Assembly: GCA_023129235.1 (NCBI GenBank)
Contig: JAGMCN010000046.1
Coordinates: forward strand, 1 to 51,860
Length of the DNA stretch: 51,860 nt
Reading direction: 5' to 3'
From: a candidate division WOR-3 bacterium
GTDB lineage: Bacteria > Hydrothermota > UBA3073 > JACQXS01
Shown: in pieces, positions 1-34,561 of the stretch
How positions within the stretch are numbered: position 1 is the first letter of the stretch
How the letters are laid out: the number at the start of each line of letters is the position of its first letter
Position numbers and translations under genes: made by a program
The notes under the pieces: generated by a model
Database searches by the model: none
What the model was told of the DNA's origin: nothing
The model's input: the letters and a program-made list of their open reading frames with translations, nothing else

Positions 1-3000
1 TTAGAAAAGGAACCTTACCAAGCATTTGCAGATCAGCTTGAGAATTATTTAATTGCAATACACAGACTTTCGGATAGGGGGAAATATTTAAAGTCAGCTA
101 TTCTAGAGTTATTAGCACATGGATATTTTGGAATTTATACGAATGGGAATCGTTATTGGTTTCTAACTGCTTATGATTTATACCCAGCAGATGTAAGTGT
201 AACAGATTCAGAAGCACAATCATTTTGGGTAAGGAAGACCGCTATAAAAAGAAGTGATCTTATAAAAATAAAAGGAATAAATCTAGGACTAGAGCCAGGA
301 GTGGCTGGTGAAGTTGTAGGAAGTTTAGACTATGTTCCATTATTTGATACTTGGTCTAAGTCTTTAGATTTAAATATTTGTTTCACAGAGGGCGGCCAAA
401 TTGTATATCAACAGAGATTCCCAAGCCCTAAGAAATACCCGTTCTTTATAGGAACGGATATTGAGCTTTTAAATTCTTTTTATCAAAAACCGTTGATAAG
501 TTTTTTAACTCCTTTGCTTAAAAAATATCAAAAGAGTATTCAGAATGTCGAAGATTCAGCTAAGAGTATTGCAAATCCAATTTTAACTTATGATGCAGAT
601 GCAGGAATCGATGTTAATGCTCTTGAGCGAGCTTTAAGAGAAGGATATAAACGAATCATAGTAGGAAAAAGTAGTGAAGGTAAAATAGGATTTATAGCTC
701 CAGGTCGTTTACCAGAGTATGCTTTAAGAATGTCTGATGTCGGGATTGAAGGTATGATGAAACATCTGGGAATTACAGGGACCTTTTTAGGAACAGTGAC
801 TAGAGGGCTTCGGGAACGAGGGGCTTTGAATACTTTAATGAAGACTACGTTTCGTAAGTTGGGTTCAACGGTTGCGATTCTTGAGAAAGCTTTCTCAAGT
901 TTAGATCAGTATCTAATAGACTATGCTCAGTCTCACCAAATGAAATTGTCAGAAAGATCGGATCTTAAAAATATAGAGCAGATCTTTCAAGGTAAGATTC
1001 ATTATGTTCCAGTTGAGAAGTTCAAAGGTTTTGGAACTGAAGATACTCAAGAAGCTAAAAATATGGCAGTGGTTAAATGGACTAAGAAATTAGTACCACA
1101 GAGCCAAGCGTTAAGAGAGCTCGGGCATTCTCAGCCTCGGAAGCTAATAGAAAAGCAAATGGCTGAGATGAAAAGTCAACAAGAATTTTTGATAGAGGCA
1201 AAACAAAAAGCAGAGCTTCCAGTTAAAGGATTCTTAGATGAAGTTTATGATCGTTTGAAAGGACGGCTTACTGATAAATTTGCCTTGGTTCCGTTAGCAG
1301 ATGATAAAGTTTTGGTAAAATGTTCAGAAGAAGATCAAAAGACAGCTGGTTTTCTTTTAGGAGATCTAAGTGAGAAGATTTTATTGGAGAGTGTAAAGAA
1401 AGAACTACCTCCTGTTGAACAAAGAGATCTCGAAGTTAAAGAAGAGAAACCTGTTCCTGCTGAGGTAGGAGTAGAAGAAAAAGAAGTAATTAAGGAAAAA
1501 ATTCCAGTTGGACCTCCTCCGGAAGAAACAAGGGGACGACCGAGAAAGACTCCGGAAGTTCAAGCTTTAGCTAAAGCAGTACAGAAGTTAGCTAAAGAAG
1601 GAGCAAGTCCGACTCCTCAAGAAGTCTCTTCGCATTCTTTTAGCGAAGAAGAACTTAAGAAATTGATAAGCAGAAGTTATAAAATAAAAAAGCCTGAAAA
1701 ATATTTTGATTTGCCTGGACTTTATTTGGTAGAGCCTCATGCCAGGTGGATTCATAGTGGACAAAAGACTTTAATTCTTAAAGCTGTTAAGTTTAATATT
1801 GTAGATAAACCGCATTTACTTTGTGGAAAGAATTTTGTTTACGGAGTTATTAATGTGAGGCGTATTGAAGAAGATTTTGATATAGAAAAGACTAGAAAGT
1901 TTCATCTAGTATCTCCAGCTCAGGCTAGAAAATGGTGGAAAGGAAAGAAATTATATTTATATTTATTTGAATTCCATCCTTTTGAAAATCCTATACCTTA
2001 TAAAAGACCTCAGGGAGTTCAGACTTTTATAACTAAAGTAGATGTTAGAAGAGAGATGGGTTTGCCTTACACTGGAGATTTAAAACCAATTGGGCTTAAA
2101 CCTTTTAAGCTTCCAGGTCCTCATAAACCTGAGAAAAAAGCCTTTCAACCACATGAATTTTTTAAGATAGAAAGACTTAAAGAAATGATTCCAGAAGCAA
2201 GTTATGATGTGTCAGCTAAGATAGATGGATTATTAGGATTTTTATGGGTTGCTGATGGTAAGGTTCAGATGTATTCAGACGTTGGAAATCGATGGTCAGA
2301 TGATAGATTAGTTCCTATTCTGGAGACTGCTAAGAAAATATTTAAACATGATGCTCTTTTACAAGGAGAATTAGTTATGAAAGGAATAGAACGTAAAGAT
2401 GTCGCCGGCTATATTCATGCTAAGACTATACCTACTCCTGAGGAGTTAGGAGCTTTGAGATATATAGTCTGGGATATCTTATACATTCGAGACAAATCTA
2501 TAGCTAATCTACCTTTTAATAAGAGAAGTGCTGTTTTAAATCTTTATCTGTCGTATAAACCATTCCAGAAAGGAGCGATTTTACGCGTCTATCATAAGAC
2601 AGCTAAGGATCGAGAACAAATACCTGGAGTTATTAAACAGGTTGCTTCAAATGAAGGGGCTGTTATTCGAGATAATAATGCATCCTATTGGGCGACGCAT
2701 TCAACTTATAAGTTAAAATACTTATATGATATCGATGCTAAAGTTATTATAGCTGAGAAGACGAAAGATGGATTACCTATCTTTCATTGTACTTTAAGAG
2801 ATGGAACTTACATTGGACAAACTTATGCGCAGAGTCAAGTGAAAGCTAAACCAGGAGATGTTATAAGAGTTAATGTAGAACATGTAACTATTCGTCCTGA
2901 TGGTTCTGTAAACTGGTATGCTCCCAGGCCTAAATCATTCAAGGAAGGAAAGATAACTCCTAAAAGAATATCAACAACTCAGGTAGGAACAGGTGGAGCT

Positions 3001-3168
3001 GATACTTTAGATTTGATAAAAGAAATCTATCTAGCGGGTGGAGGTTCAAAAGAGAAATGGACTCGCTGGTTACCAAAGTATCAAGTTTATAAAAAGGAAG
3101 TAATGGAAAAGAAAATAGAGATGCTTAAGAAAAAAGTAAAAGCGGGAGTGCCCGCGGCTAAAACATAA
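1..3168 (+). CDS. 5'-partial multidomain protein: podovirus (T7 gp8-like) portal region + acidic/AT-hook linker + ASCH-like segment + ATP-dependent DNA ligase domain
   Basis: Frame 1 has no stop from nt 1, so the track start at 301 is an internal GTG. The N-terminal blocks (AILELLAHGYFGIYTNG; YPFFIGTDIELLNSFYQKPLISFL...KSIANPILTYDADAGI) resemble T7-type portal blocks, and the gene sits upstream of scaffold and capsid. AT-hook RGRPRK lies at 1531..1548. Ligase motifs: I KIDG (2218..2229), III LLQGELVM, IV EGAVIRD, V YKLKYLYDIDAKV. Confidence 0.6.
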   Translation, partial: LEKEPYQAFADQLENYLIAIHRLSDRGKYLKSAILELLAHGYFGIYTNGNRYWFLTAYDLYPADVSVTDSEAQSFWVRKTAIKRSDLIKIKGINLGLEPGVAGEVVGSLDYVPLFDTWSKSLDLNICFTEGGQIVYQQRFPSPKKYPFFIGTDIELLNSFYQKPLISFLTPLLKKYQKSIQNVEDSAKSIANPILTYDADAGIDVNALERALREGYKRIIVGKSSEGKIGFIAPGRLPEYALRMSDVGIEGMMKHLGITGTFLGTVTRGLRERGALNTLMKTTFRKLGSTVAILEKAFSSLDQYLIDYAQSHQMKLSERSDLKNIEQIFQGKIHYVPVEKFKGFGTEDTQEAKNMAVVKWTKKLVPQSQALRELGHSQPRKLIEKQMAEMKSQQEFLIEAKQKAELPVKGFLDEVYDRLKGRLTDKFALVPLADDKVLVKCSEEDQKTAGFLLGDLSEKILLESVKKELPPVEQRDLEVKEEKPVPAEVGVEEKEVIKEKIPVGPPPEETRGRPRKTPEVQALAKAVQKLAKEGASPTPQEVSSHSFSEEELKKLISRSYKIKKPEKYFDLPGLYLVEPHARWIHSGQKTLILKAVKFNIVDKPHLLCGKNFVYGVINVRRIEEDFDIEKTRKFHLVSPAQARKWWKGKKLYLYLFEFHPFENPIPYKRPQGVQTFITKVDVRREMGLPYTGDLKPIGLKPFKLPGPHKPEKKAFQPHEFFKIERLKEMIPEASYDVSAKIDGLLGFLWVADGKVQMYSDVGNRWSDDRLVPILETAKKIFKHDALLQGELVMKGIERKDVAGYIHAKTIPTPEELGALRYIVWDILYIRDKSIANLPFNKRSAVLNLYLSYKPFQKGAILRVYHKTAKDREQIPGVIKQVASNEGAVIRDNNASYWATHSTYKLKYLYDIDAKVIIAEKTKDGLPIFHCTLRDGTYIGQTYAQSQVKAKPGDVIRVNVEHVTIRPDGSVNWYAPRPKSFKEGKITPKRISTTQVGTGGADTLDLIKEIYLAGGGSKEKWTRWLPKYQVYKKEVMEKKIEMLKKKVKAGVPAAKT

Positions 3169-3174
3169 AGGTCG
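3167..3174 (+). promoter_or_regulatory. AAAGGTCG intergenic motif, copy 1
   Basis: The 8-mer overlaps the stop codon of the portal-ligase CDS and lies 30 nt before the ATG at 3204. An A/T-rich -10-like TTTAAT follows at 3180..3185. Confidence 0.3.
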
Positions 3175-3203
3175 TGAGTTTTAATTAATCTGAATTTTTT
3201 ATT

Positions 3204-3413
3204 ATGTCTAATCCATGGTTAGCTCTTGTTAAAGTAAAACATGCAGAAGTTAAAAAAGAAGGGAGGCTTAAAGGATCAGCTGGTCTTAGAGAAGCAATTC
3301 AACGTGCAAAGAAAGTTTATAAAGGGAAAGGAGCAATGGTAAGATCTAAGGGTCAAGGAAAAGGACAGATGCGAGGAATGGGCCAGGGTCCTATAGGAAC
3401 TCCTAAAAAATAA
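3204..3413 (+). CDS. small lysine-rich basic protein (NPW..VK..A..A.K.YK motif)
   Basis: Track ORF packed between neighbouring genes. It shares a motif with the ORFs at 5448 and 5734. No enzymatic motif seen. Confidence 0.5.
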   Translation: MSNPWLALVKVKHAEVKKEGRLKGSAGLREAIQRAKKVYKGKGAMVRSKGQGKGQMRGMGQGPIGTPKK

Positions 3414-3776
3414 ATGTTAGAAGAACCTGAGGTAACATCAAGAAGAAGAGTAATTCAAAAGCTAACACCTGTAGCTTTAGGTTCGATTACAAGACTCTTA
3501 AGAACCGTTAGAGATCTTAAGGGTAAAGTTTATATTGTTGGCGGCTTAGTAACTGAAGGAAGAACAGTAAGAGATATAGATATTGTAGTGTCTAGTCCTA
3601 AAGATATTCCAGTTATAACTAAAGCGCTTGGAAAGTATGGAAGTCTAACACATTTTATTGTGCAAAAAGATGAACCTCCAGCAAGTCTTTTTGTAAAAGT
3701 AACTGGGAAAGAAGGAACAACCCCAGATAAATTTAAAGGAAAAGGTCGGATTCCTAAGAATGAATATGCTTCTTAA
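3414..3776 (+). CDS. minimal nucleotidyltransferase (Pol-beta-fold NTase)
   Basis: VYIVGGLVTEGRTVRDIDIVV matches the G[GS]-x(9-13)-DxD signature of minimal NTases. The start codon abuts the upstream stop (TAAATG). Confidence 0.55.
   Translation: MLEEPEVTSRRRVIQKLTPVALGSITRLLRTVRDLKGKVYIVGGLVTEGRTVRDIDIVVSSPKDIPVITKALGKYGSLTHFIVQKDEPPASLFVKVTGKEGTTPDKFKGKGRIPKNEYAS
3741..3748 (+). promoter_or_regulatory. AAAGGTCG motif, copy 2 (inside the 3' end of the NTase gene)
   Basis: Lies 32 nt upstream of the ATG at 3780. TAAGAAT follows at 3755..3761. Confidence 0.25.
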
Positions 3777-3779
3777 AAT

Positions 3780-3965
3780 ATGCCTTATACTTACTATGAA
3801 GAAAAACGAAACGGAAAAACTTTCTATTGTATAAAGAGCAAGAGGTCAGGTAAGACAGCTTGTTATCTCTCGAAAGACGCTCGACAAAAAGGAGAACGTT
3901 TAAGAGAGGCGGCTGCTCATCTTTCTAAGGCACAATTTAAAAAAGCTTTTAGAATAGCAAAATGA
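3780..3965 (+). CDS. small basic hypothetical protein
   Basis: Track ORF with tight spacing to both neighbours. No recognisable motif. Confidence 0.45.
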   Translation: MPYTYYEEKRNGKTFYCIKSKRSGKTACYLSKDARQKGERLREAAAHLSKAQFKKAFRIAK

Positions 3966-3966
3966 T

Positions 3967-4950
3967 ATGGTTCATATCCCGATTCGTCCGGCTAAGGGTA
4001 AGAAACATTACCGTGTTTATAAAGAAGCCAAAGGCGAAGTTAAAACTAAAGCGCGACTTTTGAAGGAAGCTTTAAGAATTGCGCATGAGAAAGATGAACA
4101 TGTAAAAGAGATTGATTTTATTCCTGGTAAATTTACATTACAGCTTCATGGTTGGTTTAATCCTGGAATCTGGAATAATATAGGAGAGTGTGAACGATTT
4201 TTAAAGAAGGTTTTAAAAGAAGGAAAAGATCCTGTGAAAGAGTTTGAAAAGAAAGGAGGTAAGTTTCATTATGATTTAAGAACTAAAAAGAAAACGGCAC
4301 CGTCCTGGTTCGGATTAACCCCTTTTCGTGCACCATGGACTGGAACTCCAGAAAATAAAGTAATGGGTACCGTTAAAGGATACCAAGTAATTACACCTGG
4401 AGGAAAAGTTCTTCAGAAGTTTTTAGCTGAAGTAGCTGAGAAGGCTATGGCTAAAGAAGGAATAGCGGAGCGCCGAGATAGAATTGAGTGGATGAAGATT
4501 AAAGCTCAATGGTTTAAACCTGATTCACCGGGAAATCCACAGAAAGATCAGCCAGCTATTATGATTGCTATTGAATTTTATAAACCAGCTTGTATTCATA
4601 GAAGAGAATTAGATTTCTTTGATATTACTTATTTTGGAGATTATCTTAAGGGCCGATACTATAATCGTTTAGTTGAAAGAAAGATTGCGACTGATGAGCT
4701 TACAGAGTGGCAAAAGCAAGATATTAAAAAGAAGAAGGCTGCTGCTTTTTATAATCTTTCTTTCTATTTTTGGAAGGCTAAAGATCAATGGGGTGATCCT
4801 GGAACTCCTTATACTATGAAAGAAGTTCATCAAGCTGCTTTAGGAACGAAGACTTTGGCTAAAGTTGCAGCTCCGAAAAAAAAGAAACCTAAAAAAGTAA
4901 AAGAGATAAAGGAGTTGAAGCCTCCTGAAGCTACTAAAGAATTTCATTAA
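3967..4950 (+). CDS. LigD-type 3'-phosphoesterase-like protein (with an insertion)
   Basis: FTLQLHG...(about 40 aa insert)...KFHYDLRTKK..SWFGLTPFRAPW resembles the LigD PE core (QKHxxxxLHYDFRLE..SWAVPKGPS). ITYFGDYLKGRYYNRLVER resembles the PE C-terminal block (L.GekLkGrw.LvR). Alignment by eye only. Confidence 0.45.
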   Translation: MVHIPIRPAKGKKHYRVYKEAKGEVKTKARLLKEALRIAHEKDEHVKEIDFIPGKFTLQLHGWFNPGIWNNIGECERFLKKVLKEGKDPVKEFEKKGGKFHYDLRTKKKTAPSWFGLTPFRAPWTGTPENKVMGTVKGYQVITPGGKVLQKFLAEVAEKAMAKEGIAERRDRIEWMKIKAQWFKPDSPGNPQKDQPAIMIAIEFYKPACIHRRELDFFDITYFGDYLKGRYYNRLVERKIATDELTEWQKQDIKKKKAAAFYNLSFYFWKAKDQWGDPGTPYTMKEVHQAALGTKTLAKVAAPKKKKPKKVKEIKELKPPEATKEFH

Positions 4951-4951
4951 T

Positions 4952-5308
4952 ATGGAATTAAAACCACCTTATAAAATTGATCACCTTCCTATAAAAGAAC
5001 TACCAATGCAGATTATTATTTCTCCACTTAAAGAGAAATATAAACCAACAGGAAGACCTACTCGAGAATTCAGTGCTTTGAAGGAAGATATTAAAAAAAA
5101 TGGTCTTAAGGTTCCTATTTTAGTTCGAAGGGTGGGAGATAAGGAAAGACAGTTTTTTAAGATTAAGGCAGGTTTTATCTCGATTATAGATGGAGGTCAT
5201 AGATTTACAGCTTGCGAAGAGCTGGGTAAGAATGTTATCCGGTGTCGAATGATGGATCGAGATTACTGGCATAAAATAAATAATCATCTAGATTTGAGTA
5301 AGTTTTAA
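4952..5308 (+). CDS. ParB N-terminal-like nuclease domain protein
   Basis: ISIIDGGHRFTACEELG matches the ParB/sulfiredoxin DGxHR box, preceded by a PILV block (KVPILVRRV). Confidence 0.6.
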   Translation: MELKPPYKIDHLPIKELPMQIIISPLKEKYKPTGRPTREFSALKEDIKKNGLKVPILVRRVGDKERQFFKIKAGFISIIDGGHRFTACEELGKNVIRCRMMDRDYWHKINNHLDLSKF

Positions 5309-6783: not shown

Positions 6784-7800
6784 ATGGCCGCATTAACAGA
6801 GTTAGAGACCGCAACGCAGATGTATTTTATGCCCGTGGTCCAGAATCAAATCTGGACAGTTTCTCCTATTCTACATAGGATTTTCAAGATGGCTAAGGAA
6901 GGTCAGTGGGGTTTAGCCTCACCTTCTTATGACGGTCGAGAGATCGTGGAACCTCTTGATTATCAGACTGTAGTTTCGGCAGGAGCTCAACATGGAGCTT
7001 ATAATACTGGTACTACTTGGCAGTGGGGTGAACAAGCAAGTTTAGGAGGCGCTCATTATTCATGGAAGATGTACTTTGTTGGAATTGCTATTCATAACTT
7101 AAATGTTGCTTATCAGCAAGGAAAGTCTAAGTTATTTGATTTAGCAGCTCAACGTTTGAAAAGTGCAGCTCATGTATTGAGAGACGACCTTGCTACAGAT
7201 TTTTATGCTAATAATGATGGAACTGGTGATAACATGATGGGTATGGCATCCTTAACTTCTAATACCGCTACTATTGGTGGAATTGCTCAGGGAGCTACTG
7301 GTTGGTGGCAAGTCTATAAAGACGCCCCTGGAGCCCGAGATTTATCCTGGAATATTCTAAATGTAGGATGGTATGCAACTAAGAAGTATGGTGCTCAGGA
7401 TCCTCCCACTTTATTGGTAACTACCGAAGGAGCAATGCAAGTTTATGAAGAGAACTTAACTAAAGTAACTACCACTGGTGGTGGAGCTTTAGCAAGTCTT
7501 CCTTTAGTTGCTTTGATGGCAGGTACCAAAGGTCCAAGAGTAATTGATGGTGGTTTTGAAGCATTTTATTTCAAAAGAATTCCGATGGTTTCAGATCCTT
7601 ATTGTACTGCTGGTAAACTTTATATCATTAATGAAAGATATCTCCATTGGAGAGTTTTGAAGAATTTTGAAAGCACTGGTTGGATCCAGCAAAGAGTAAA
7701 TGGTTTGGATAAAGCAACTTGTACCATCTTCGGATACGGAGCAATGACTTCATCTGCAAATCGAAAGCACGGAATTTTAGCCGACTTAAACGAAAGCTAA
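6784..7800 (+). CDS. putative major capsid protein
   Basis: 338 aa with non-biased composition, sitting after the scaffold-like gene and followed by a strong terminator. Assigned by position and size. Fold not verified. Confidence 0.6.
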   Translation: MAALTELETATQMYFMPVVQNQIWTVSPILHRIFKMAKEGQWGLASPSYDGREIVEPLDYQTVVSAGAQHGAYNTGTTWQWGEQASLGGAHYSWKMYFVGIAIHNLNVAYQQGKSKLFDLAAQRLKSAAHVLRDDLATDFYANNDGTGDNMMGMASLTSNTATIGGIAQGATGWWQVYKDAPGARDLSWNILNVGWYATKKYGAQDPPTLLVTTEGAMQVYEENLTKVTTTGGGALASLPLVALMAGTKGPRVIDGGFEAFYFKRIPMVSDPYCTAGKLYIINERYLHWRVLKNFESTGWIQQRVNGLDKATCTIFGYGAMTSSANRKHGILADLNES

Positions 7801-8354: not shown

Positions 8355-11300
8355 ATGGCAGAGGAATTTTTTGAAATTATAATACCAAGTGGAGCTACAG
8401 CTTCTGCCTTGGCTAAAAAGTACGGAACAGATCTTGATACTATCAAAAGATTAAATCCGCAGATTAAAGATATTGATAAGATCTATGCTGGCGATAAAAT
8501 GAAATTGCCAAAGTTTGAAGTTCCTAAGATTCCTGAGGTCCCAAAACTTCCTAAAAATTATAGCCTAGATCTTGAAACTTATTTAAAGAAATTATATTCG
8601 GGAGGCTATACCTTTGCTCCTTTTGCAAGAGAACGAATGGGAGAAGATTTGCAGAAGCTTTATCCTAGCATGGATGTATGGAAAGATGTTTATACTAGAG
8701 CGCCGGATGGATGGGAGAAAGAGGCTTATTGGAAGTTAGTAATTCCAACTCCAAAGCTGCCAAAAATAATCAAGACATCAACCTGGAAAGAGGTTGATTT
8801 TTCTGTTACTAGAGATATAGCAAAGCCAGTATATAAACAAGCAAAGAAAGTAGCTCTTGATATTATAACGAAAGTAAAGGAGACTCCGGTGGTTTCTGAT
8901 ATTATTAAGAAAACTAAAGATATTACGAGAGCTTATGTAATGAAACCTATTACTACTAAATTCCCAAAGCAGACAGAACGTTTGGGTCAACTCCCAGATT
9001 TTGTTGAGAAAGCTATTAGTACTCCTGAACCAGGACCGCTGACGCCTATAATTAAAAAGATATCTAGAGAATATTTAGGTCCAGCAATTGATAATTATAC
9101 AAGACAGATAAAAAAAGATTGGGAAAGAGATAGACCTTTGAGAGAAGAATTTATTAAAGATTGGCTTAAGTTAGTTAAGAAAATTCCTTGGATAGGTAGA
9201 AAGATAACAAAGTCTTCTCAAGAGAAAGAACTTCAGGATTTAATGGTGAAGAAGGGAATAAGAGCACTTGAAGAAAAAAAAGAACCCGAAGATTTACCTT
9301 TAGATGAATCTGTTATTTCTGGATACATAGGAAAGTTACGAGATGATCTTTTAGAATTTGTAACAAAGGCTAAGGATAGTGGTCATATTTTAAGAGTAGA
9401 TGAATCAGGATATGTTTATCAGGATGAAGAAGCTACAAATATTGCTCGTAAAAGAATTTTTGGAGAAGTTTCAGATTTATTAGAAGAACATTTTCCAGCT
9501 TCAGATCCTGTTTATAACGAAGCTATATATAAAGCACAGGAAGCAGGAGAAGCTCGGCAAACTCTGGTGAATTTATTAACTGTGAATTTTAATACCTTGT
9601 ATTATAGTTTAACAACTCCTGATGCGCAGAAAACTGAGAGTCTTCGAGAACTTTCTAAAAGTTTGAATAAGATTTTAGAAGTATCCTCGGCTCTCGAAGG
9701 TATTGATCCAACTCTCGAAAGTTTAAATAAGGAATTAGAGAAACATAATAGATCAGTAGCTAATATTGAAAAGTATTATGATGAAAATATTTCTAAATGG
9801 TGGGATGAATTAGAGAATATTCTGGGAGCTAAAGCAGCTAGTTATCTTCAAAAATCTAAAGAGTTAATAAATGAAGAGATTGATAATCTTAATAAAATAA
9901 TCGCTGATCTTCCTGAAACTAAAGTTAATAGAGTATTTGAATTATTAGGATTTATAGATCATTCTCAGACTTTCTGGAATATCCAGAATAATTTAAATGT
10001 TTTATTAGAGGATCCAAAGATAGCTGATACTCTAAGAAAATTATTCTTAGGAGATAAAAAAGTATTCTCAAAAGAATTAAAGGCATTAAATACATTAGTT
10101 AGAAACCAAGATTGGTATAAAGAAAATGAGAAGTATTTAAAAGAGGGATTTATTGGAAAAGTATTGGACTCAAGATCAGTAGAAGATTTTGAAAAATTAA
10201 GGAAAGAATTAGAAACTAATCCAGCGATTTCTGATCCACAGTTAAAAGCTGGGCTTAGAATCGTTGAGATTTTTGAGAATGATTTTAAAATATCAGATGA
10301 ATTATTTAAATTACTCCAGCGTCAAGCAAAAGCTACTAAGCTTTTTATGGATATTTCTCGAGAGAGTGCTCTTGAAAAAGAAAAGGCATGGGCTGGACAG
10401 GTAAATACTTATCTTGAAACTAAAGGATATAAAGTAATTCTAGGAGCGTTTATTCCAGGAGGATTGACCTGGCGAGATTCAATTACTGGACTTAAGTTTG
10501 CCTGGGAATCCGTAAAGGATAAAACAATTCATGTTAAGTTTCCTTATAATTTTACAAAGGAATATTATAATCTCTGGGATGGAACAAAGGTAGAATTTTG
10601 GGATTGGAAAGAGAAAAGTTATGAAGTGTCCCCATCTAAAGCTATATCAAAGGCTTGGAATTCTGTGGAATATATGTGGGATACTTTTATTTTTAGAGGT
10701 ACAGTTCCTGCTATTAATTCTGCGATGGCTCTACTCTATCAAGGCTATGCCCATTGGGGTCTTTTAGATGAGGAAGTTTTAAAAGATTGGAGGTTAGTTC
10801 AAGAAGAAGGTGGCATCAAGAATATGAAAGATTATAAATCTTGGAAATTAACTGCTTATGCAGACCCAGCCTTAAATGTCCCAGATGGATCTTACTTAAG
10901 AGAAGAAGGCTCTATTCAAAATATAGGTAAATATCTAGTAGAAGCTTGGAATTATTACAGGAGCCCAAAGGCCTATGATGAATTTGTTCCGTTAAAAGAT
11001 ACAAAAATAGAATGGATAGATGGAAAAATTAAGATAGGACCTTGGACATACGATACTCTTAACTCTCCTCAAGAACTTTGGGCTTATAATCCTCATCTTA
11101 AAGATGTTTATATAATCCCAGCTGGAACTAGAGTTTCAATTCCACGCTTCAGAAATACAGCTAGATTTACAGATTTATTTACTGATGATTTTAGATATCA
11201 ATTATACAAGGAGCATCCGGGTTTTTGGTATTTTTTCGATGAGTTTCTTCCTTTTATGATGCCGGATCCATCCACTATAGCAATTATGGCAGGAAAAACT

Positions 11301-14300
11301 ATAGGTTTAGGAATGGCAAGGACTTTTAAGTTCGATCCAAATCTAGGAATGAAACCTCTTTCTCAGGTTAAAACGCTTTTTTTCAGCACAAATTTAGCTT
11401 ATCGTTCTCAACGATTAGATTCTTTTGGACGAGAATTTATTAGACTAGCTACATTTAAGGGAGTGGATTGGAAAGTGTTTCCAAAACTTTTACATTATAA
11501 ACCAAAGATAAATGAATGGAGAGGAGCATTAGCAGATCTTACAGTATTAAAAAGCGCGCCTAGAGTGATTCAAGAAATGACATATGTTTGGCATACGAAT
11601 TTTAAAAGATTAATGGATCAAGCATTTCTTACTTATCAGTGGGAGGCTATTCTAAAAGGGATTGCAAAAGAAAAAAAGATGCCTTTGAAGGAACTAAATA
11701 AGTTAATTCAGATGGCTTTTTTTGATCCTGAGAAAATGCAGGCACCGGTGGTTCGAGAAGTTTTTCAGGCAATGAGTCTTCGAATATTTGATTTACAAAA
11801 GTGGATGGGTCAAAGACCATTCTTAGATGATGCATTAAAAGCATTATATCAGAAAGTAAAATCAACTGATTATTTAATTAGACAACAAGCTTTTAATCTT
11901 AGTTATCAAAAACTAGGAGTCTGGGGAAAAGATTTCTTTGATGATGTTACAGTAGATTATCTTCTTCCTCTAAAACAACGAAGAATTAAAAATGTAGAAA
12001 CTTATACCTATCAATTCTTAAGAAATGTAACTCCTGATAGTCAGATCCAAGCAAAAACTCAGATAGAATTAGCTAAGAAACTTTTAAAATCATGGGATGA
12101 AGATACTAAATATGCCTTTCGTGTAGCAGAAAGTGCAAAGATAGTAGTTCCTTTACCATCTGGAACTGTGTTAAAGATTGCTCCTATAGAACAACGAAGG
12201 AATATGAGGAATGCTTTTGAATGGATTGTAGAAAATAAGAAACCAACTTTAGTTATTAACCCTGATAAAGTAACACAGAGAGAGTTCGAGGCTCTTTGGA
12301 AATTAGTTGGAGATACAGTAGATCTTAGATTAACTAACTTTAATAAAATTCCAATAGCGAATGTTTATAATGTCTTTCCTCAGACTAGATATTTTAAAGG
12401 ATCTATTACTGAATATTTTAGAGTGACTCGGAGTATAAAGACTAAAAAAATTATAAGTACGGTAGGAATTGGTTCTATAGATGATGTAGCAAAGAAAATA
12501 AAGCAAGCTAAAGTAGGAAGAACACCGGCTGAAGCTCAAGAACTTTTTGGTTATTATCTTCAAAACTGGACTCCTTATGTTGAGAAAGGAGTTAGAAAAG
12601 AGTTTAAATATATAAGTTCGACTAAGGTTGGGAAAACAATAAAGGAAAAGATAGCTCTTCGAACTCAGATGCCAAGGTCTAGAAATGTTAAAGACGTAAT
12701 TGATCATTCTGCTTGGACTTTTCTGAAGAGAGAAGGAGATGAATATAGAGATTTAGTTCGATATCTTCAAAATATCTCAGTTCCTCCTAAAAAAATAAAA
12801 ACAAAAATCGGGATCACGTATGAGATAAAAGATATTAGAGATAGAATATCAGGAGATCTGACCAAGGCTCTAGATCGTCAGTTTACTAAAAAGACGGTGA
12901 CGATCTATTCAGATCGGAAACGAGAAATCTCGAAACGGGTTTTAGATATCTTTGAGAGAGAAGCAGCTGTTCAGGATTTCTTTAAACAGACTATAGAAGG
13001 GAAATCTTTTCTGAAGAGATGGAAAGATTTCATTCCAAGTATTACAGATGATCTTCTTGAAAGAAATACTACGGCTTTAAAGTCTGTGAGAACTAGAATA
13101 AAAAGAGGGAAAGCAGCAGGTAAATCAGAGTTATTTATTAAAGAACTCCAAAAAACAGAAGCGAATATTCAAGATAAAATTTGGACTCATAAGATTCAAA
13201 GATATCTTCTAGATAATTTTAGAGATAAATCTACCCTAGATCCTACTTCGTATTCACTTCTTTTGAAAGATACTTTAGGAAAGACAGAGACGACCAAAGT
13301 TTTAGAATCCATGGATGAGTTTGTCTCTTTTACTAGGAATCAATTCAATAGAACTATAAGTGATTATTGGAGAGCAGCAGGTAAAAAAGAGAAATTTATT
13401 ACTGAAGTGGAAAAACTTGATGGTATAGAAACCTTTATTAAGAAAATTCAAAAACAATATAGACTTGAACCTAGAAAGACTTCGATAAATACTATCGTGG
13501 GAAAATTAGATAAGTATTGGCCAAAGGTTAGAATTAAAGATCAGATTATTAGAGAACGAGTAATTCCATCAGCTCGAACTCTAGCTATTGAAAAGAATAA
13601 ATTAGCTCTTCAGAAAATAGGAAGAGGAAGTAAAGGAGATGCTGCTAAAGTAATAGATGATTTTGCTAAGTTTGAGATCAAAGGTGATAGAGGAATGTTT
13701 GCAACAACGATCGGTTATAAATTTAGCCAGCAAGATAGAGTCAATTTATTAGCTTTAGCTAAAGATAGCTCTAAAAGAGATACTTCTATTATTCTATATG
13801 TTTTTAATGAGACGCCGGTTGATAAACAAATTATAAAATGGATAAGAAGTCGTCCTGAGATGAAGAGTGTAAGATTGATTGTTTATGATCCTAAAACTGC
13901 TTTTATAAAAAATATTAAAGAGAAGACTGTTCCTTTACAAACTATGATAGATGAGCTTTTAGGAACTCGAGATGGCAAAGCTGTCTATGATCTTGCGAAT
14001 CCAATAGTGAGAAGAAAAGAAAGGGTCTTCACCGATCAAGAATTTTTTGACATTCTTTCTAAACTCCCAACTCAAATATCTCCTACCCTTAAAATTCCTA
14101 AAGGTCTTAGTAGGAAGTTACCAGATGGTTTATATGTTTATCCAGATGATTGGGAGAATTTTAGAATATTAATTGCCCAGAAGCTTTTAAAGAAGAATCC
14201 TAAATTGATTGAAAATACATTAGGTTTAACCCCAGATAAATTAATGAAACAAGTTTATGCTGATTTCAAGGAAATTCCCTGGGCAGATTATGTAAAGATG

Positions 14301-17300
14301 TGGCAAAAATGGGAACTTGATCCTAAGAAATTAACACAGGCATTAGGAAGAACAGAAGCTGATAGATTTCTAGAATTTCTTTATCATAATTCAAGATCAG
14401 TTTTAGATCAATTAAAAGCTCAGGGATTAGCAGTTAGTTTTGTTAAAGGAGAAATGAAAGTAAAGCGAATTCAATCTTTTAAATGGGGTTTAAGTTATAC
14501 TCAAGAACAAGCTGTGAGATTAGTAGGCCCAGGTGGATTTGTAATGGGAAGTCCTACTAGTAGAATAAGGGATCTCTTGGTAAAGAAAACATCCCCAATT
14601 ACTAAATCAATAGATGATTCTTTGAGAAGCTTTGGAAATTTCCTCCGGATGGATACCTTTAATAATTTTGATGACTGGGCGAAATATATAGATGATTTAG
14701 AAAGATTCTTAGAGAAACCAAAAGCAAGAGTGACAATTCTTAAGAATCAACTTGATATTCTGGATGATGAAATAAAGTTGTTAACTAGAGAAAAGAAATC
14801 ACCTCAAGATTTGATGGAATTAGTGCGTAAGAAAAGTGAATTAATGGGATCAGTACAAAAATCATTGAGAGCTGAGGGTAGAAATTATCAACGCTGGTTA
14901 ATTAAAATGAATAAGATGGATGATGCTTTAGAATTAGAAAGAAAGTTAAATGGATTAAGAGCAATTGTAATAGGCCCAGATGGAAATCCTATTACAGGTG
15001 TAGCGAAAGAATATTATACAGCTTATCTTTCAACAAGAAGTAAGTTTGCTAAGGAGGGATATGCAAAGCTTATTAAGAAAAATAGAAAATATACTACTAG
15101 ATGGAATAATTTAAGATTAAATGACGAATTAATAAAAGCAGCAAGTCAAGAATCTAAAAGAGTTCCTTTTATTTCTAAACAATTATCAGAGAAGGCAAAG
15201 ATTAGAAACATGTTTGAAGCTGAACTTGGGGTACTGGAGAAAAAAATAACAGGAGCTGAAAGAAAAATGGATGATCTTTTAAAAATAGTAGGGAATAAGA
15301 TATTTAAACCTACTTCTGCTCAGATTAATTTTAAGGGAATATTAAAAGCAAATTTAGTTCCTGATGATATTCTAGGAGAGGTTAATCGTAGGATGATTTC
15401 AGTTAAGAAATCACTTAAAAGTATAGAAGGTCAAATAGCAAAAACGATTAAACTTAAAGAATCAACATTTTCTTTACAGAAAGTGAAAGTAACTTTAGCC
15501 AAAGAAATAGATGATTTAGGTTCCCTTAAAAAACTTTTACCAGATTTGAAAAAATATGAGCTAGCAAAGGTTAAGATTCTACCTCGAGAACTTTGGGATC
15601 TAGTTCATGGACACCCATCTGCTACCTTTTTGAAGAAAAAAACTCAGATGGAGAAAGCTCTTTTAAGAAAGTTTTCTTCTGTTACTGGCGTTAAAGTTCC
15701 GCTTTCAAAAGAGAATGAGTCAATTCTTCGAGCGTTTAAAAATGTTCAAGCTACAGTAAAGAAACGAGCGTTTTTAGATACTGCTTCGAGAGGAAAATTA
15801 TATGATGATTTTCTTAGTAAGACTGCAGATCCTGGATATATTAAACCAGGAGCAAAAGCAGTTAGGGTTCCATATTCTCGATTAGATATTACTAAAAAAA
15901 TAGATGATTTACAAGAAGCAAGAATCCAGACTATTATTGTAACTCAAAGAGTAAATAATTTGGGTCCATATGTTGCGGGACGGCCAATTAGAGTGCTTCA
16001 TATTCCAGAACTAAGTACTAGTCAGGTTCCACAGTTAGCTGAGTTAGGAGGATTTATGACAGATATTGAATATAAAGGTTTCCAGAAAGTATGGAAAGCA
16101 ATGCTTCAGGATAAAAGTTTAATCTTTTGGGATTCTGATTTCACTCGAGCTACTGAAGTTGCTAATAAATTAAAGCAAATTCTAAAAGTAGAGAGCCCAT
16201 TACGATATCATTCAATGCAAGTAGGTTCAGATTTATTCTTTTCAGTAATTAAAAAGCGGGAAATTGCAAAGGGAAAACCATGGAGGTTTGCTCGAGGAAG
16301 AAAAGAATATCTAAAAGTTTGGGGAGACCCGAAAGGCCAGGCTATTATTACTACTAAAGCTTTAGAACCAAAGAAGATAATGCATCATGTATATAAAAGA
16401 CATGATATTGAGAAAGGTTATCTTGATTTAGTGGCGCGTTTAGATAAATCTTCTTTGACACCAGCAAAGTTATATATTCCTGGATCGATAGCTAATCCAA
16501 AAAAATATATCTTGGGTCATATTCAAGAACGGATTCCAACATTTGTTTTAGCACCAGAGGTAAAAACTATTAGAATTTCTTATTTAAGAAATGTAGCGAA
16601 GGCTCATAAAGAACAATATGCTCAGTTAATATTTCCAAAGAATCCTACAAGTGGAGAAAGGATTATAATGGAATATTTAAAATCGAAGGGAGTTACTTAT
16701 TCTCAAGCGAAGGTAGCTCTTAAAAGAGAATTATTTTTAAATCCCTCTCTTATTTATGGTAAGAACGTAAACTGGAATTATTCGATAAGTAAAGAATTTC
16801 CAACCTGGCTTTTTCCATATGGTACAAAGTTTGATCCAAAAAGACAGGCAGCTTTCGATGCGGCATTCATAAGTAAAAGAATATTTAAATCTAAAGCACG
16901 ATTACATCAAGAATTAAAATCAACATTTTTAAGAGATGTAAATGATTGGTTATCAGATGGTAGAATTTATATTCCTAAGTTTTTACAAGATGAACGTTAT
17001 GCATTAAGAGCAGATCCGAGAGATCTTTTAGCTCGGTTGAGTTTAACTTATAATCGAGAAACAGCTAAGAAGAGTTGGTTTAAGCTTAAGAAAATTCAAC
17101 TAGATACAGCTGAAGAAATGGAAATTCGTCGTCTAGTAGAAGCAGGAGGACGGAAGATTCTTTCAGATGCAGAAAAACTTTGGATTGTGAAGAAAGAAAA
17201 TCTAATTAAATCGATGCTTTCAAAATGGAATAGAAAGAAGCCGAACATTGCTCAACAGGAATGGGTAGCAAAAACAAGGAAGATGATAAATGATTTAGTA

Positions 17301-29340: not shown

Positions 29341-29408
29341 GGAGTCGGTCAGAAGAAGGTCTGTAATCATCTTGTTAAATAACGGGTTCGAATCCCGTTC
29401 CGACTCCA
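29341..29408 (+). ncRNA. tRNA-like element (non-canonical: no anticodon stem found)
   Basis: Acceptor-type helix GGAGTCGG (29341..29348) / CCGACTCC (29400..29407). D-like arm CAGA-AGAAGG-TCTG (29350..29363). Canonical T arm ACGGG-TTCGAAT-CCCGT (29382..29398). Region 29364..29381 forms no 5-bp anticodon stem by eye, and one extra nt (29399) separates the T stem from the acceptor helix. Confidence 0.35.
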
Positions 29409-32967: not shown

Positions 32968-33137
32968 AAAATTGGTTTAAGAAATTAAAATTATTCTTCA
33001 CTTGGAAATGTCCATATCGAAAGATTTGCCCCCAATACGATAAAAAAGGAACGTGTAAGGAAGGACCTTGGGTGTATTGTGGAAAATATTGGGAATTAAA
33101 AAAGAAAGAGAATGATAAAAATAGCACTGGTAGGTGA
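32964..33137 (+). CDS. possible small Cys-rich protein (57 aa), not in the track
   Basis: Its ATG overlaps the upstream TGA (ATGA). Translation: MKNWFKKLKLFFTWKCPYRKICPQYDKKGTCKEGPWVYCGKYWELKKKENDKNSTGR, with four Cys. It overlaps the kinase start by 26 nt. Confidence 0.3.
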   Translation: MKNWFKKLKLFFTWKCPYRKICPQYDKKGTCKEGPWVYCGKYWELKKKENDKNSTGR

Positions 33138-34008: not shown

Positions 34009-34561
34009 AATTAAAACCGAGACTTTCTATATTTATCGGGGGGTAGTTCTAATGCAATTAGGTAGAACTAATTTAAAGATATATAAGCTTCCAAGCGGAG
34101 GATGGATAGAGGATTCCATAGTATTACGTCAAGGAGATTCACAACATATAACTCCCGGAATGGCTCATCGGTTTATAGGCTATACAGATTCGGAAATAAT
34201 TGAATTTTCGACTCACCATCAAGATAGCGATAGTTTTCGAGATCCTAATGACCTATCGGGAAAAGCTTTTATAAAAGAAGGATATGATTGGGATGGGGTA
34301 GCAGATTCAGGGATGGCTCTTCAGGAAGCAGCACCTATAATAACAGGAAGAAGCTTTGAGGAAGCACACAAGATTCTAATTGAGAATCATGTTATCTATT
34401 ATAATCCAGTAACTTATTTTAAAAAGAACGATAGGAATTCAGCTGAGTGGAAAGCCGAAATGATTAAAAGACTTGATATCGAAATCTTTTATGAAGATAA
34501 TTGTGAGCAAGTTAAAATCCTGGAAAAATTATGCCCAAAATGTCTGATCGTAAAAGTATAA
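33878..34561 (+). CDS. cupin-fold sugar isomerase/epimerase-like domain fused to a short HAD-like (DxDGV) phosphatase-like domain
   Basis: Cupin blocks: KKWGTEIWI...GKLLLLKKGYQSSVHYHKIKTETFYI..G........GDSQHITPGMAHRF. The C-terminal part has GYDWDGVADSG (HAD motif I, DxDx[TV]) and FYEDN (motif IV-like). Confidence 0.5.
   Translation: MQNLKRVIKKWGTEIWISNNPNLPYCGKLLLLKKGYQSSVHYHKIKTETFYIYRGVVLMQLGRTNLKIYKLPSGGWIEDSIVLRQGDSQHITPGMAHRFIGYTDSEIIEFSTHHQDSDSFRDPNDLSGKAFIKEGYDWDGVADSGMALQEAAPIITGRSFEEAHKILIENHVIYYNPVTYFKKNDRNSAEWKAEMIKRLDIEIFYEDNCEQVKILEKLCPKCLIVKV

What the first reader, a model, noticed from the sequence alone, without database searches (positions are those of the whole stretch)
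1..3168. Portal-like protein fused in frame to an AT-hook, an ASCH-like segment and a complete ATP-dependent DNA ligase
One uninterrupted frame, open from the window edge, joins four parts. The first is a region with podovirus-portal-like blocks. The second is an acidic/Pro-rich linker carrying a canonical AT-hook, RGRPRK (1531..1548). The third is a PUA/ASCH-like stretch (EPHARWIHSGQKTLILKA). The fourth is a ligase nucleotidyltransferase domain with motifs I (KIDG, 2218..2229), III, IV and V plus a C-terminal OB-sized tail. Portal C-termini project into the capsid, so such a fusion would place up to 12 ligase domains next to the packaged DNA end. I do not know of a described portal-ligase fusion. 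Possible roles include sealing nicks or cohesive ends on entry, or genome circularisation.
Basis: partly seen in the sequence, partly recalled or inferred. Interest (0 to 1): 0.7.

Follow-up and report, generated by a model that had tools for sequence, protein, structure and literature searches.

The report
Phage portal protein fused to DNA ligase
In an uncultivated ~90-kb phage, the portal protein (the ring through which DNA enters and leaves the capsid) carries a nucleic-acid-binding ASCH-like domain and a complete ATP-dependent DNA ligase on its C-terminus, so each virion should hold about twelve ligases at the DNA gate; this architecture recurs in many related phages and I found no description of it.

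Summary
Frame 1 is open from base 1 to the stop at 3166-3168 (1055 codons, N-terminus cut by the window edge). An AlphaFold model of the N-terminal part matches only phage portals (Pan3, LME-1, SU10, N4, T7; E down to 1e-13). In relatives the gene directly follows the large terminase and precedes the major capsid protein. The C-terminal part models as an ATP-dependent DNA ligase (nucleotidyltransferase + OB). Between them lie a Pro/Glu/Lys-rich linker with a conserved (E)TRGRP motif and an ASCH-like domain (hhalign 80% to ASCH protein TTHA0113).

The fusion is not an artefact. About 24 diverged clusters from independent metagenomes keep it, and the ligase part is more conserved than the portal part. 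Three members carry an intein inside ligase motif V. A sister clade has portal + ASCH without ligase, and a different portal family (P0071) carries the same ligase subtype. The same ASCH and ligase modules occur in giant phage multidomain ("polyvalent") proteins.

This window's copy lacks the motif I arginine (KIDGLL) and the motif III aspartate (LLQGELV), so its activity is uncertain. Best reading: a portal-anchored, virion-borne DNA-sealing module. It is a new variant of the known portal-enzyme fusions.

The parts
1..1395 (+). Portal domain (aa 1-465 of the window ORF; about 97 N-terminal residues lie upstream of the window)
   Evidence: AF2 model of the homologous region (pLDDT 71.9). Foldseek against PDB: top 50 hits are all phage portals (Pan3 9vyf 1.4e-13, LME-1 9efk, SU10 7z44, N4 9yf8, T7 6qx5). 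Gene order in relatives is TerL-gene-...-MCP.
1396..1632 (+). Low-complexity Pro/Glu/Lys/Val-rich linker (aa 466-544), variable in length and sequence between homologs
   Evidence: Composition; alignment.
1525..1548 (+). ETRGRPRK: conserved (E)TRGRP short motif with an AT-hook-like RGRP core
   Evidence: Position verified. GRP is conserved in 15 of 18 fused homologs and in 3 unfused ones, while the rest of the linker is not alignable.
1633..2046 (+). ASCH-like (PUA-fold) domain with a short N-terminal helix (aa 545-682; core aa 573-677)
   Evidence: PDB profile search hits only TTHA0113 (E 0.016-0.022, whole domain). hhalign 80% probability, E 1.4e-5. Pfam ASCH hits 3 of 28 members. AF2 pLDDT is 85-95 with a beta-barrel plus helices pattern. 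Present in all fused and unfused family members.
2047..2199 (+). Conserved connector preceding the ligase (GLPxTGDLKP...P.HKPEKKAF...RLKE.IPE), predicted mostly disordered
   Evidence: Invariant residues; low pLDDT at C-part residues 141-175. The same KPEKKA segment precedes the ligase in the unrelated-portal fusions P0071, P0074 and P0079.
2200..2721 (+). ATP-dependent DNA ligase nucleotidyltransferase domain. Motif I is KIDGLL (2218-2235, catalytic Lys740), III is LLQGELVM (2356-2379), IIIa is YIVWDILY (2461-2484), IV is EGAVIRD (2653-2673), V is TYKLK (2704-2718).
   Evidence: Pfam PF01068 E 1.6e-9; phrog_114; Foldseek hits to DNA ligases at 4e-13; motif table.
2722..2955 (+). OB-fold domain of the ligase (aa about 908-985)
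   Evidence: AF2 beta strands at C-part residues 365-429. Foldseek alignments of 300-400 columns to NTase+OB ligase cores.
2956..3168 (+). Highly conserved C-terminal tail (Q.GIGG.D..DLIKEIYL..GG...W..W followed by a long Lys-rich helix) and the stop codon at 3166-3168
   Evidence: Invariant columns. AF2 shows one strand plus helices at aa 1003-1012 and 1017-1047. OB+tail is the most conserved region, at 68.6% mean pairwise identity. Function unassigned.
6784..7800 (+). Major capsid protein (context: places ORF1 in the head module)
   Evidence: phrog_9953 major head protein, E 6e-24. The relatives' orthologs hit PF17236 SU10_MCP.

Best explanation
ORF1 is the phage's portal protein, extended at its C-terminus by a flexible linker, an ASCH-like nucleic-acid-binding domain and an ATP-dependent DNA ligase. 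It is a portal-anchored version of the multidomain 'polyvalent' proteins that phages package into their heads.

Shown: it is one polypeptide. The N-part has the portal fold and occupies the portal's genomic slot. The C-part has the ligase NTase+OB fold with the catalytic lysine. The fusion is conserved and under stronger constraint than the portal part.

Inferred from the topology of all solved portals (the C-terminal crown faces the capsid interior): assembly of the dodecameric portal puts up to 12 ASCH-ligase units inside the head, around the inner mouth of the DNA channel. The ~80-residue linker lets them reach the DNA that passes or rests there.

Inferred from general ligase biochemistry: they are charged with AMP in the producer cell, so each can perform at least one sealing event without external ATP.

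Proposed function: sealing the phage genome. This could mean nicks, or cohesive ends made by the lambda-GpA-type terminase seen in relatives. It could happen while DNA is threaded through the portal, or at the start of infection after the linker is cut and the module leaves with the DNA. The result would be that the incoming genome does not depend on host ligase and is repaired after host nuclease attack. The ASCH domain, which is older than the ligase in this lineage, probably holds the DNA or the DNA end. In this particular window the ligase has lost the motif I Arg and the motif III Asp, so its catalytic efficiency is uncertain.
For: Single open frame. Portal fold. TerL-portal-MCP synteny in relatives. 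Ligase fold and family. About 24 fused clusters at 46-57% identity, with contigs up to 93.9 kb from four data sources, plus IMG/VR loci. Mean pairwise identity among fused members rises from portal 49.6% to ASCH 54%, NTase 60.7% and OB+tail 68.6%. Catalytic motifs I, III, IIIa, IV and V are intact in 20 of 25 members. Inteins are inserted exactly in motif V in P0005, L006 and probably L007. No conserved internal start codon or SD precedes the ligase. The same ligase subtype (KPEKKA connector, AAYWATH motif) is fused to a PHROG- and Pfam-recognisable SPP1-type portal in P0071, P0074 and P0079, again next to a TerL-sized ORF and an SU10-type MCP. The ASCH and ligase modules recur in 1000-1800-aa proteins with MBL hydrolase, LigD 3'-phosphoesterase, Dam-type methyltransferase and XkdF head-protease domains. 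This is the architecture type that PMC5512222 interprets as head-packaged, injected proteins, and that paper and PMC9503650 describe portal/MuF-enzyme fusions. Relatives' terminase is of the GpA family, PF05876 +/- GpA_nuclease.
Against: No experiment or virion data exist, and the phage is uncultivated. No head protease was found in the head module that could release the module. A folded ~50-kDa ligase tethered to the portal cannot leave through the channel. A ligase on the inner side of the portal has no obvious substrate in a normally packaged linear genome. The window's own copy lacks the motif I Arg and motif III Asp, as do P0015 and P0023. P0023 and P0025 have lost catalytic residues and the OB domain, so catalysis is dispensable in some lineages. 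A whole sister clade manages with portal + ASCH only. Terminase type and genome ends could not be examined for this contig because the window starts inside the portal gene.
Confidence: 0.55

Rival explanations
1. The ligase works in the cytoplasm, not in the virion. The fusion would only couple late expression of a replication or maturation ligase (sealing nicks in concatemers before packaging) to the portal gene. The C-terminal part would be cleaved off or be functionally irrelevant once the portal is assembled.
For: Many phages need a ligase late in infection (established for T4; my own knowledge). The long, flexible, low-complexity linker is a plausible processing site. The portal + ASCH sister clade shows the portal works without the ligase.
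Against: Fusion to the portal has been kept across deep divergence and arose on two unrelated-looking portals. That is hard to explain if location were irrelevant. The related modules sit in head-associated polyvalent proteins with an XkdF protease. No free-standing expression signal for the ligase was found.
Confidence: 0.15
2. The ASCH-ligase part is mainly structural. It would act as a DNA-end or DNA-duplex clamp that organises or retains the genome end at the inner portal mouth (analogous in role to the P22 portal barrel or T7 core), with catalysis secondary or lost.
For: The window copy, P0015 and P0023 lack the motif I Arg and motif III Asp. P0023 and P0025 lost the nucleophile or Asp and the OB domain yet stay in frame with the portal. 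The ASCH domain alone is retained in the sister clade. The Lys-rich C-terminal helix and the GRP motif suggest non-specific DNA contacts.
Against: 20 of 25 members keep every catalytic motif. The NTase and OB regions are the most conserved parts of the protein. Inteins target motif V, which is typical of functionally essential active sites.
Confidence: 0.15
3. The nucleotidyltransferase acts on RNA (as an RNA ligase or capping-like enzyme) rather than on DNA. For example it could repair host or phage RNAs cut by defence nucleases, or modify early transcripts.
For: Weak secondary Pfam hits to mRNA_cap_enzyme (E 0.0019, below threshold). These are precomputed for many homologs. Relatives P0123 and P0131 show weak RNA_ligase hits. 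ASCH domains were originally predicted to be RNA-binding (cited in PMC12704722).
Against: DNA ligase families score far better in Pfam (38 against 18 bits), in the PDB profile search and in Foldseek, where the top 50 in PDB are all DNA ligases. Association with LigD 3'-phosphoesterase, MBL and Dam methyltransferase domains points to DNA.
Confidence: 0.07
4. Assembly or sequencing artefact: portal and ligase are really two genes joined by a missed stop or frameshift.
For: None beyond the general possibility in a metagenome-assembled contig.
Against: The uninterrupted fusion is present in about 24 independent clusters and in IMG/VR contigs with different linker sequences and lengths. There is no conserved Met at the junction.
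Confidence: 0.01

Closest known systems
Portal- or MuF-fused effector domains / phage 'polyvalent proteins' (Iyer, Burroughs, Anand, de Souza, Aravind 2017, PMC5512222; Iyer et al. 2022, PMC9503650)
   Same: A head-anchoring module (portal) carries C-terminal enzymatic domains and is encoded in the head and packaging module. The ASCH and ligase modules here are shared with giant multidomain proteins that also carry MBL, Dam methyltransferase, LigD phosphoesterase and XkdF protease domains.
   Different: The described portal/MuF cargoes are PBECR RNases, 2H phosphoesterases, InPase, Nudix and ADP-ribosyltransferases. An ATP-dependent DNA ligase or an ASCH domain on a portal is not mentioned in the texts I could search. 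Here the cargo seals nucleic acid rather than attacking host components.
Podovirus portal proteins (T7 gp8, N4 gp59, SU10, cyanophage Pan3, LME-1)
   Same: Full-length portal fold match (E 1e-13 to 1e-10, 450-650 aligned columns). The gene lies next to TerL, and the MCP is of the SU10 type.
   Different: Sequence identity is only 10-14%. There is no hit to any Pfam or PHROG portal family. It carries a ~590-residue C-terminal extension with two extra folded domains.
Compact ATP-dependent DNA ligases (archaeal/eukaryotic catalytic cores, T4 and ASFV ligases, Lig E Pmar-Lig, LigD ligase domain)
   Same: NTase + OB architecture with motifs I, III, IIIa, IV and V. The best target coverage is to the LigD ligase domain 6nhx (TMt 0.53).
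   Different: 14-19% identity. Motif IV ends in Arg (EGxVIRD). There is no clear RxDK motif VI. There is a family-specific KPEKKA connector and a conserved ~70-aa C-terminal tail. In this window motif I is KIDGLL and motif III is LLQGELV.
ASCH domain proteins (Pfam PF04266; Thermus thermophilus TTHA0113, PDB 2dp9/1wk2)
   Same: Alignment over the whole ~105-residue domain, 26% identity, hhalign probability 80%. It shares the EP.A..I..G.K N-terminal signature.
   Different: The window copy is below Pfam detection. It is embedded in a portal protein, and its ligand is unknown.
C-terminal portal extensions that project into the capsid (P22 gp1 barrel; engineered T4 gp20-GFP fusions). Cited from my own knowledge, not checked here.
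   Same: The portal C-terminus tolerates additions, and these end up inside the head next to the DNA.
   Different: Those extensions are a coiled-coil barrel or an artificial reporter, not enzymes.

Membership tests
Phage portal protein | Portal fold (clip/stem/wing/crown) detectable by structure comparison | tested here: met
   AF2 model, then Foldseek against PDB: 179 hits at E<=1e-3, and the top 50 are all portals.
Phage portal protein | Match to an existing portal sequence family (Pfam or PHROG HMM) | tested here: not met
   No portal hit in Pfam, PHROGs, PDB phmmer/hmmsearch or tblastn against INPHARED. It therefore belongs to no curated sequence family, although it has the fold.
Phage portal protein | Gene located beside the large terminase and upstream of scaffold and MCP; sole portal candidate | tested here: met
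   In relatives L001, L003 and L005 the gene starts 2-10 nt after TerL. In the window the MCP lies downstream at 6784-7800. The upstream side of the window itself is cut off.
Phage portal protein | Assembles as a dodecameric ring at one capsid vertex | not testable with these tools
   Needs cryo-EM or a multimer prediction.
ATP-dependent DNA ligase (PF01068 + OB) | NTase domain above the Pfam gathering score | tested here: met
   PF01068 at 38.2 bits against a 26.2 cut-off, aa 734-900.
ATP-dependent DNA ligase (PF01068 + OB) | Motif I KxDGxR with the nucleophilic lysine | tested here: inconclusive
   K740, D742 and G743 are present but the Arg is Leu (KIDGLL). 21 of 24 homologs have KxDGxR.
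ATP-dependent DNA ligase (PF01068 + OB) | Motifs III, IIIa, IV and V | tested here: met
   The motifs are LLQGELVM (Glu kept, Asp replaced by Gln), YIVWDILY, EGAVIRD and TYKLK.
ATP-dependent DNA ligase (PF01068 + OB) | C-terminal OB-fold domain | tested here: met
   Foldseek alignments of 300-400 columns span NTase+OB of solved ligases. AF2 shows a strand pattern at aa 909-973.
ATP-dependent DNA ligase (PF01068 + OB) | Self-adenylylation and nick sealing on DNA | not testable with these tools
   Biochemical assay needed.
ASCH domain (PF04266, PUA-like) | Significant match to the ASCH profile or to ASCH structures | tested here: inconclusive
   The window copy has no Pfam hit, and 3 of 28 family members hit ASCH (best E 0.0045). 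The family profile hits only the ASCH protein TTHA0113 in PDB (E 0.016). hhalign gives 80% probability, E 1.4e-5. This is supportive but below curated thresholds.
AT-hook (PF02178) | R-G-R-P core flanked by basic residues | tested here: met
   TRGRPRK in the window. Across homologs, though, only the GRP/RGRP core is conserved and the flanks are often E/T/A.
AT-hook (PF02178) | Binds the minor groove of AT-rich DNA | not testable with these tools
   Needs DNA-binding assays.
Polyvalent / head-anchored effector proteins (PMC5512222) | Head-anchoring domain (portal or MuF) fused to enzymatic domains that also occur in other multidomain phage/MGE proteins; encoded in the head module | tested here: met
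   The architecture is portal + ASCH + ligase. Homologous ASCH and ligase modules occur in proteins with MBL, D12 methyltransferase, LigD_N and XkdF protease domains. Head-module context is shown.
Polyvalent / head-anchored effector proteins (PMC5512222) | Packaged in the virion and delivered to the host | not testable with these tools
   Needs virion proteomics or infection assays.

The most novel reading that the evidence does not exclude
The portal of this phage group is itself a DNA-repair machine. Twelve pre-adenylylated ligases, positioned by ASCH domains at the inner mouth of the channel, would seal the genome as it passes. This could be nicks, or the cohesive ends at the moment of ejection. 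Alternatively the ligases are released from the linker and injected, to circularise and repair the genome independently of host ligase. Either way this would be the first DNA ligase that is a stoichiometric structural component of a virion, and it has been recruited onto at least two different portal lineages.
Probability: 0.3. Interest if true: 0.8.

Novelty: new variant of a known kind. Interest (0 to 1): 0.62.

Why it matters
Portal proteins are regarded as passive or sensor-like DNA gates, and DNA ligases as soluble replication and repair enzymes. A conserved covalent union of the two implies that a group of abundant uncultivated phages carries its own DNA-sealing activity in a fixed copy number at the point where the genome enters and leaves the capsid. 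That bears on several questions: how linear phage genomes are protected and circularised at entry, how phages counter host nucleases that nick or cut incoming DNA, and what cargo a portal C-terminus can bring into a head. The last point is useful for engineering phages that deliver enzymes. It also adds DNA ligase and ASCH to the repertoire of head-packaged 'polyvalent' modules. Finally, it defines a portal family that current sequence profiles miss: NCBI annotates this protein only as 'ATP-dependent DNA ligase, partial' in a WOR-3 bacterial bin.

Tried and rejected
Sequence-only detection of the portal failed everywhere. Pfam, PHROGs and PDB phmmer on the whole ORF gave nothing. A PDB hmmsearch with the portal-only profile gave one spurious hit. 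tblastn of either half against 50,697 GenBank phage records gave no match. One search was a frame error.

A single-sequence scan of IMG/VR with the ligase part found nothing; the alignment-based scan was needed.

Promoter and terminator scans of 1-4000 gave counts at shuffle level. A search for in-frame start codons with SD motifs before the ASCH or ligase parts found nothing conserved. I therefore rejected separate translation of the ligase.

hhalign of this portal family against the P0071 portal gave only 5.6% probability. I treat the two portal-ligase fusions as involving different portal families, but I cannot exclude very deep common ancestry, since both phage groups have SU10-type MCPs.

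PHROG and Pfam scans of the 327-aa and 288-aa ORFs between portal and MCP found no head protease or named scaffold.

The idea that the three Arg-to-Leu / Asp-to-X variants form one decaying sublineage is not supported by nearest-neighbour identities.

A helix-hairpin-helix reading of the GIGG motif in the C-terminal tail was considered but not tested, so it is not claimed.


Full report
OBSERVATION. Frame 1 of the + strand is open from nt 1 to nt 3165, with the stop at 3166-3168 (1055 codons). The other two frames are broken by dozens of stops. The ORF runs off the 5' edge of the window. Full-length homologs are 1140-1166 aa, and the window copy aligns from about residue 98 of them, so about 97 residues are missing.

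CONTEXT. All sizeable ORFs of the window are on the + strand, and GC is 32-40%. Downstream of ORF1 come the following:
- small ORFs and a 327-aa ORF of unknown function;
- a 118-aa ParB-N-like ORF and a 288-aa ORF;
- a major capsid protein at 6784-7800 (phrog_9953, E 6e-24);
- a 145-aa ORF, then a giant 4793-aa ORF (8355-22736) whose only recognisable feature is an N-terminal LysM/transglycosylase-like segment;
- tail-fibre-like genes.
The exact protein is in NCBI as 'ATP-dependent DNA ligase, partial [candidate division WOR-3 bacterium]' on a 51,860-bp contig. So the window is a whole MAG contig that is evidently viral.

THE N-TERMINAL PART IS A PORTAL. No sequence method recognises it:
- Pfam, PHROGs and PDB phmmer on the whole ORF gave nothing.
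- A PDB search with a 22-sequence profile of the region gave nothing meaningful.
- tblastn against 50,697 phage records gave no match.
I therefore modelled residues 1-570 of the full-length homolog P0004 with an alignment of 22 family members (AF2, mean pLDDT 71.9, pTM 0.61). Foldseek against the PDB returned 179 hits at E<=1e-3. The top 50 are all phage portal proteins, aligned over 450-650 columns: cyanopodophage Pan3 (1.4e-13), LME-1, SU10, N4, T7, Kp9, GP4 and others.

Synteny agrees. In the 93.9-kb contig carrying P0004 and the 92.5-kb contig carrying the unfused relative P0026, the gene starts 5-10 nt after a large terminase (PF05876 GpA_ATPase, with a weak GpA_nuclease hit). It is followed by small ORFs, a ~270-aa ORF, an MCP (weak PF17236 SU10_MCP), a ~145-aa ORF and a 4674-5044-aa giant ORF. 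This matches the order in the window.

THE C-TERMINAL PART IS AN ATP-DEPENDENT DNA LIGASE. Pfam PF01068 matches aa 734-900 above threshold, and phrog_114 matches as well. A family profile hits archaeal ligases, Lig E, LigIV and LigIII in the PDB. The AF2 model of window aa 545-1055 (16-sequence alignment, mean pLDDT 83) hits only DNA ligases at the top of the PDB list: T. sibiricus 4eq5 at 4e-13, Pmar-Lig, T4, ASFV, P. furiosus, LigIV, Lig1, and LigD 6nhx with TMt 0.53. The alignments span 280-400 columns and cover NTase + OB. In BFVD the top 50 are almost all viral DNA ligases or unnamed proteins.

The motifs in the window copy are as follows:
- Motif I: KIDGLL (K740 is the presumed nucleophile).
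- Motif III: LLQGELVM.
- Motif IIIa: YIVWDILY.
- Motif IV: EGAVIRD.
- Motif V: TYKLK.
- After these come the OB fold (aa ~908-975) and a ~70-residue tail that is the most conserved stretch of the whole protein.
Two canonical residues are missing in this copy, the Arg of KxDGxR and the Asp of motif III. The same pair of changes occurs in P0015 and P0023, which are not the window's nearest relatives, suggesting the two positions are coupled. Whether the window's enzyme is fully active cannot be decided from sequence.

THE MIDDLE. Aa 466-544 form a Pro/Glu/Lys/Val-rich linker that varies in length and cannot be aligned between homologs, except for one island, (E)TRGRP. GRP is kept in 15 of 18 fused homologs and in three unfused ones. 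The basic flank that makes it a textbook AT-hook (RGRPRK) is found in only a few members. The motif is certainly functional, but 'AT-hook' is one reading among others, such as a processing or docking site.

Aa 545-682 form a well-predicted domain (pLDDT 85-95). Evidence that it is ASCH-like:
- A 28-sequence profile of it hits only the two entries of T. thermophilus TTHA0113 in the PDB, over the entire domain (E 0.016-0.022).
- TTHA0113 is itself a Pfam ASCH protein (E 1.6e-9).
- hhalign gives 80% probability, E 1.4e-5, over 104 columns at 26% identity.
- Pfam ASCH is hit by 3 of 28 members.
I accept 'ASCH-like, PUA-fold' with moderate confidence. ASCH domains are nucleic-acid binders, and some are predicted to read modified bases or DNA (bioRxiv 10.1101/2020.08.06.240630).

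THE FUSION IS REAL AND SELECTED.
- The word-indexed search of 5.8 billion clusters found 24 other fused clusters (46-57% identity, 86-100% coverage, contigs up to 93.9 kb, from ENA, JGI, Logan and NCBI). It also found about 25 clusters of a sister clade of 806-860 aa that end shortly after the ASCH domain.
- IMG/VR adds three fused loci, each directly behind a TerL-sized ORF where checked.
- No Met is conserved at the portal/ASCH or ASCH/ligase junctions, and no SD-preceded start exists there in the window.
- Among full-length fused members, mean pairwise identity rises along the protein: portal 49.6%, ASCH 54.0%, NTase 60.7%, OB+tail 68.6%. The ligase is under stronger constraint than the portal.
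- P0005 and L006, and by match truncation L007, carry an intein inserted between the two lysines of motif V: TYK|C...HN|CK. This kind of site is typical of inteins in essential active sites.
- Conversely, P0023 (KTNGLL) and P0025 (RMNGLR) have lost catalytic residues and end before motif V/OB. So the activity has decayed in some lineages.

BEYOND THE FAMILY. An exhaustive HMMER search of 1.84 billion representatives with the full-length profile gave 1521 hits at E<=1e-3 and 58 at E<=1e-30. Apart from family members, the ASCH segment (profile ~657-790) and the ligase segment (~792-1140) match many large proteins. Pfam shows what these are:
- MBL hydrolase + ASCH + ligase (P0113, P0053).
- MBL + Dam-type D12 methyltransferase + ASCH + ligase + HTH (P0084).
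- ASCH + D12 methyltransferase + ligase + MBL (P0086).
- Ligase + MBL + ASCH + XkdF head protease (P0076).
- A series with ligase + LigD 3'-phosphoesterase (P0102, P0123, P0131, P0133, P0142, P0149).
These are architectures of the 'polyvalent protein' type, which Iyer et al. (PMC5512222) interpret as proteins packaged into heads and injected with the DNA. That paper and PMC9503650 explicitly describe portal and MuF fusions to PBECR, 2H, InPase, Nudix and ART domains. In PMC5512222 the word 'ligase' refers only to RNA ligases. Four literature searches found no portal-DNA-ligase or portal-ASCH description.

P0071, P0074 and P0079 (948-972 aa) are portals that Pfam and PHROGs do recognise (SPP1_portal E 3.6e-6; phrog_64 E 5e-16 over aa 21-495). 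They are not detectably related in sequence to this family's portal (hhalign 5.6%). They carry a different middle domain and then the same ligase subtype, including the KPEKKA connector and the AAYWATH motif. They too follow a ~510-aa ORF and lie upstream of an SU10-type MCP. So the same ligase is attached to two very different portals.

MECHANISM.
Shown:
- It is one polypeptide with a portal fold, a linker, an ASCH-like domain and a ligase fold.
- The fusion is conserved.
- Its modules are shared with head-associated multidomain proteins.

Inferred from the architecture of all solved portals (C-terminal crown towards the capsid interior; my knowledge of P22, T7, SPP1, phi29 and T4 structures):
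- Twelve ASCH-ligase units sit inside the head around the channel mouth.

Inferred from general ligase chemistry:
- The ligases are pre-adenylylated in the producer cell and can each seal once without ATP.

Proposed:
- They seal the phage genome, either in transit through the portal or after release and co-ejection. The substrate would be nicks or the cohesive ends expected from a GpA-type terminase.
- The effect would be a ligase-independent, damage-tolerant start of infection.
- The ASCH domain, which predates the ligase in this lineage, would hold the DNA.

Weak points:
- No releasing protease was found.
- The tether prevents exit unless it is cut.
- Some lineages have lost catalysis.
- The window copy itself is atypical at two catalytic-motif positions.

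Rivals (cytoplasmic late ligase merely co-expressed with the portal; purely structural DNA clamp; RNA-directed NTase; artefact) are listed with their evidence in the Rival explanations section. The artefact reading is effectively excluded.

VERDICT. The finding is confirmed and its interpretation supported. It is not categorically new, because portal-enzyme fusions are a described class. However, a DNA ligase (with ASCH) as the portal's cargo, conserved across a large uncultivated phage group and present on two portal lineages, appears undescribed and is experimentally tractable. I rate it a new variant of a known kind, with interest 0.62.

Noticed in passing
window 32026-43343 (+ strand): A run of sugar or nucleotide-sugar genes lies inside the phage contig. 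It comprises a methyltransferase + cytidylyltransferase-like gene (32026-32964), a PfkB kinase (33112-34005), an NAD epimerase/dehydratase (34531-35343), a GT8 glycosyltransferase (38180-39097) and a radical SAM gene (40753-41871). It could be a surface-polysaccharide auxiliary pathway or a DNA hypermodification pathway. The latter would be interesting given the portal's ASCH domain, since ASCH and other PUA-like domains can read modified bases.
   Followed up: no
window 8355-22736 (+ strand): A giant 4793-aa ORF directly follows the MCP and a 145-aa ORF. Its only hits are an N-terminal LysM/transglycosylase-like segment and a weak baseplate-hub-like stretch. Orthologs of 4674-5044 aa occur in relatives, with LysM or PG_binding_1. 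It is probably an ejected internal virion or cell-wall-penetrating protein. No RNA polymerase signature was seen.
   Followed up: partly
P0005 (aa ~1000-1340), L006 4700-6430, L007: Inteins of ~330-340 aa are inserted at an identical position inside ligase motif V (TYK|C...HN|CK) in at least two, and probably three, family members.
   Followed up: partly
window nt 2233-2235 and 2362-2364 (aa L745, Q788); also P0015 and P0023: Loss of the motif I Arg (to Leu) always co-occurs with loss of the motif III Asp (to Q, C or V) in three members that are not each other's closest relatives. This suggests a coupled residue pair.
   Followed up: partly
window 4952-5308 (+ strand): A 118-aa ParB N-terminal-like protein is encoded inside the head module, between portal and MCP (PHROG ParB-like families at E ~1e-6; Pfam ParB_N below threshold). 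ParB-like nuclease/NTPase domains are common in head-packaged phage proteins.
   Followed up: no
window 29372-30493 (+ strand): A 373-aa ORF has weak papain-like C1 peptidase and PG_binding_1 hits and is a candidate endolysin. The 1536-aa ORF at 44320-48930 has a ConA-like Laminin_G_3 domain and is probably a receptor-binding protein. GC skew changes sign around 46-48 kb.
   Followed up: no
P0071, P0074, P0079 (L008-L011): In the second type of portal-ligase fusion, the ASCH domain is replaced by a small domain with a GG.VTEG.TDRD[IV]D[IV] signature, reminiscent of minimal Pol-beta-type nucleotidyltransferases. This was not tested. One of these contigs also encodes a UDG next to the head genes.
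   Followed up: no
P0102, P0123, P0131, P0142, P0149: A separate widespread architecture combines an N-terminal domain of unknown function (phrog_16951), a ligase of the same subtype and a LigD 3'-phosphoesterase. It is a possible phage-borne end-healing and sealing enzyme.
   Followed up: partly
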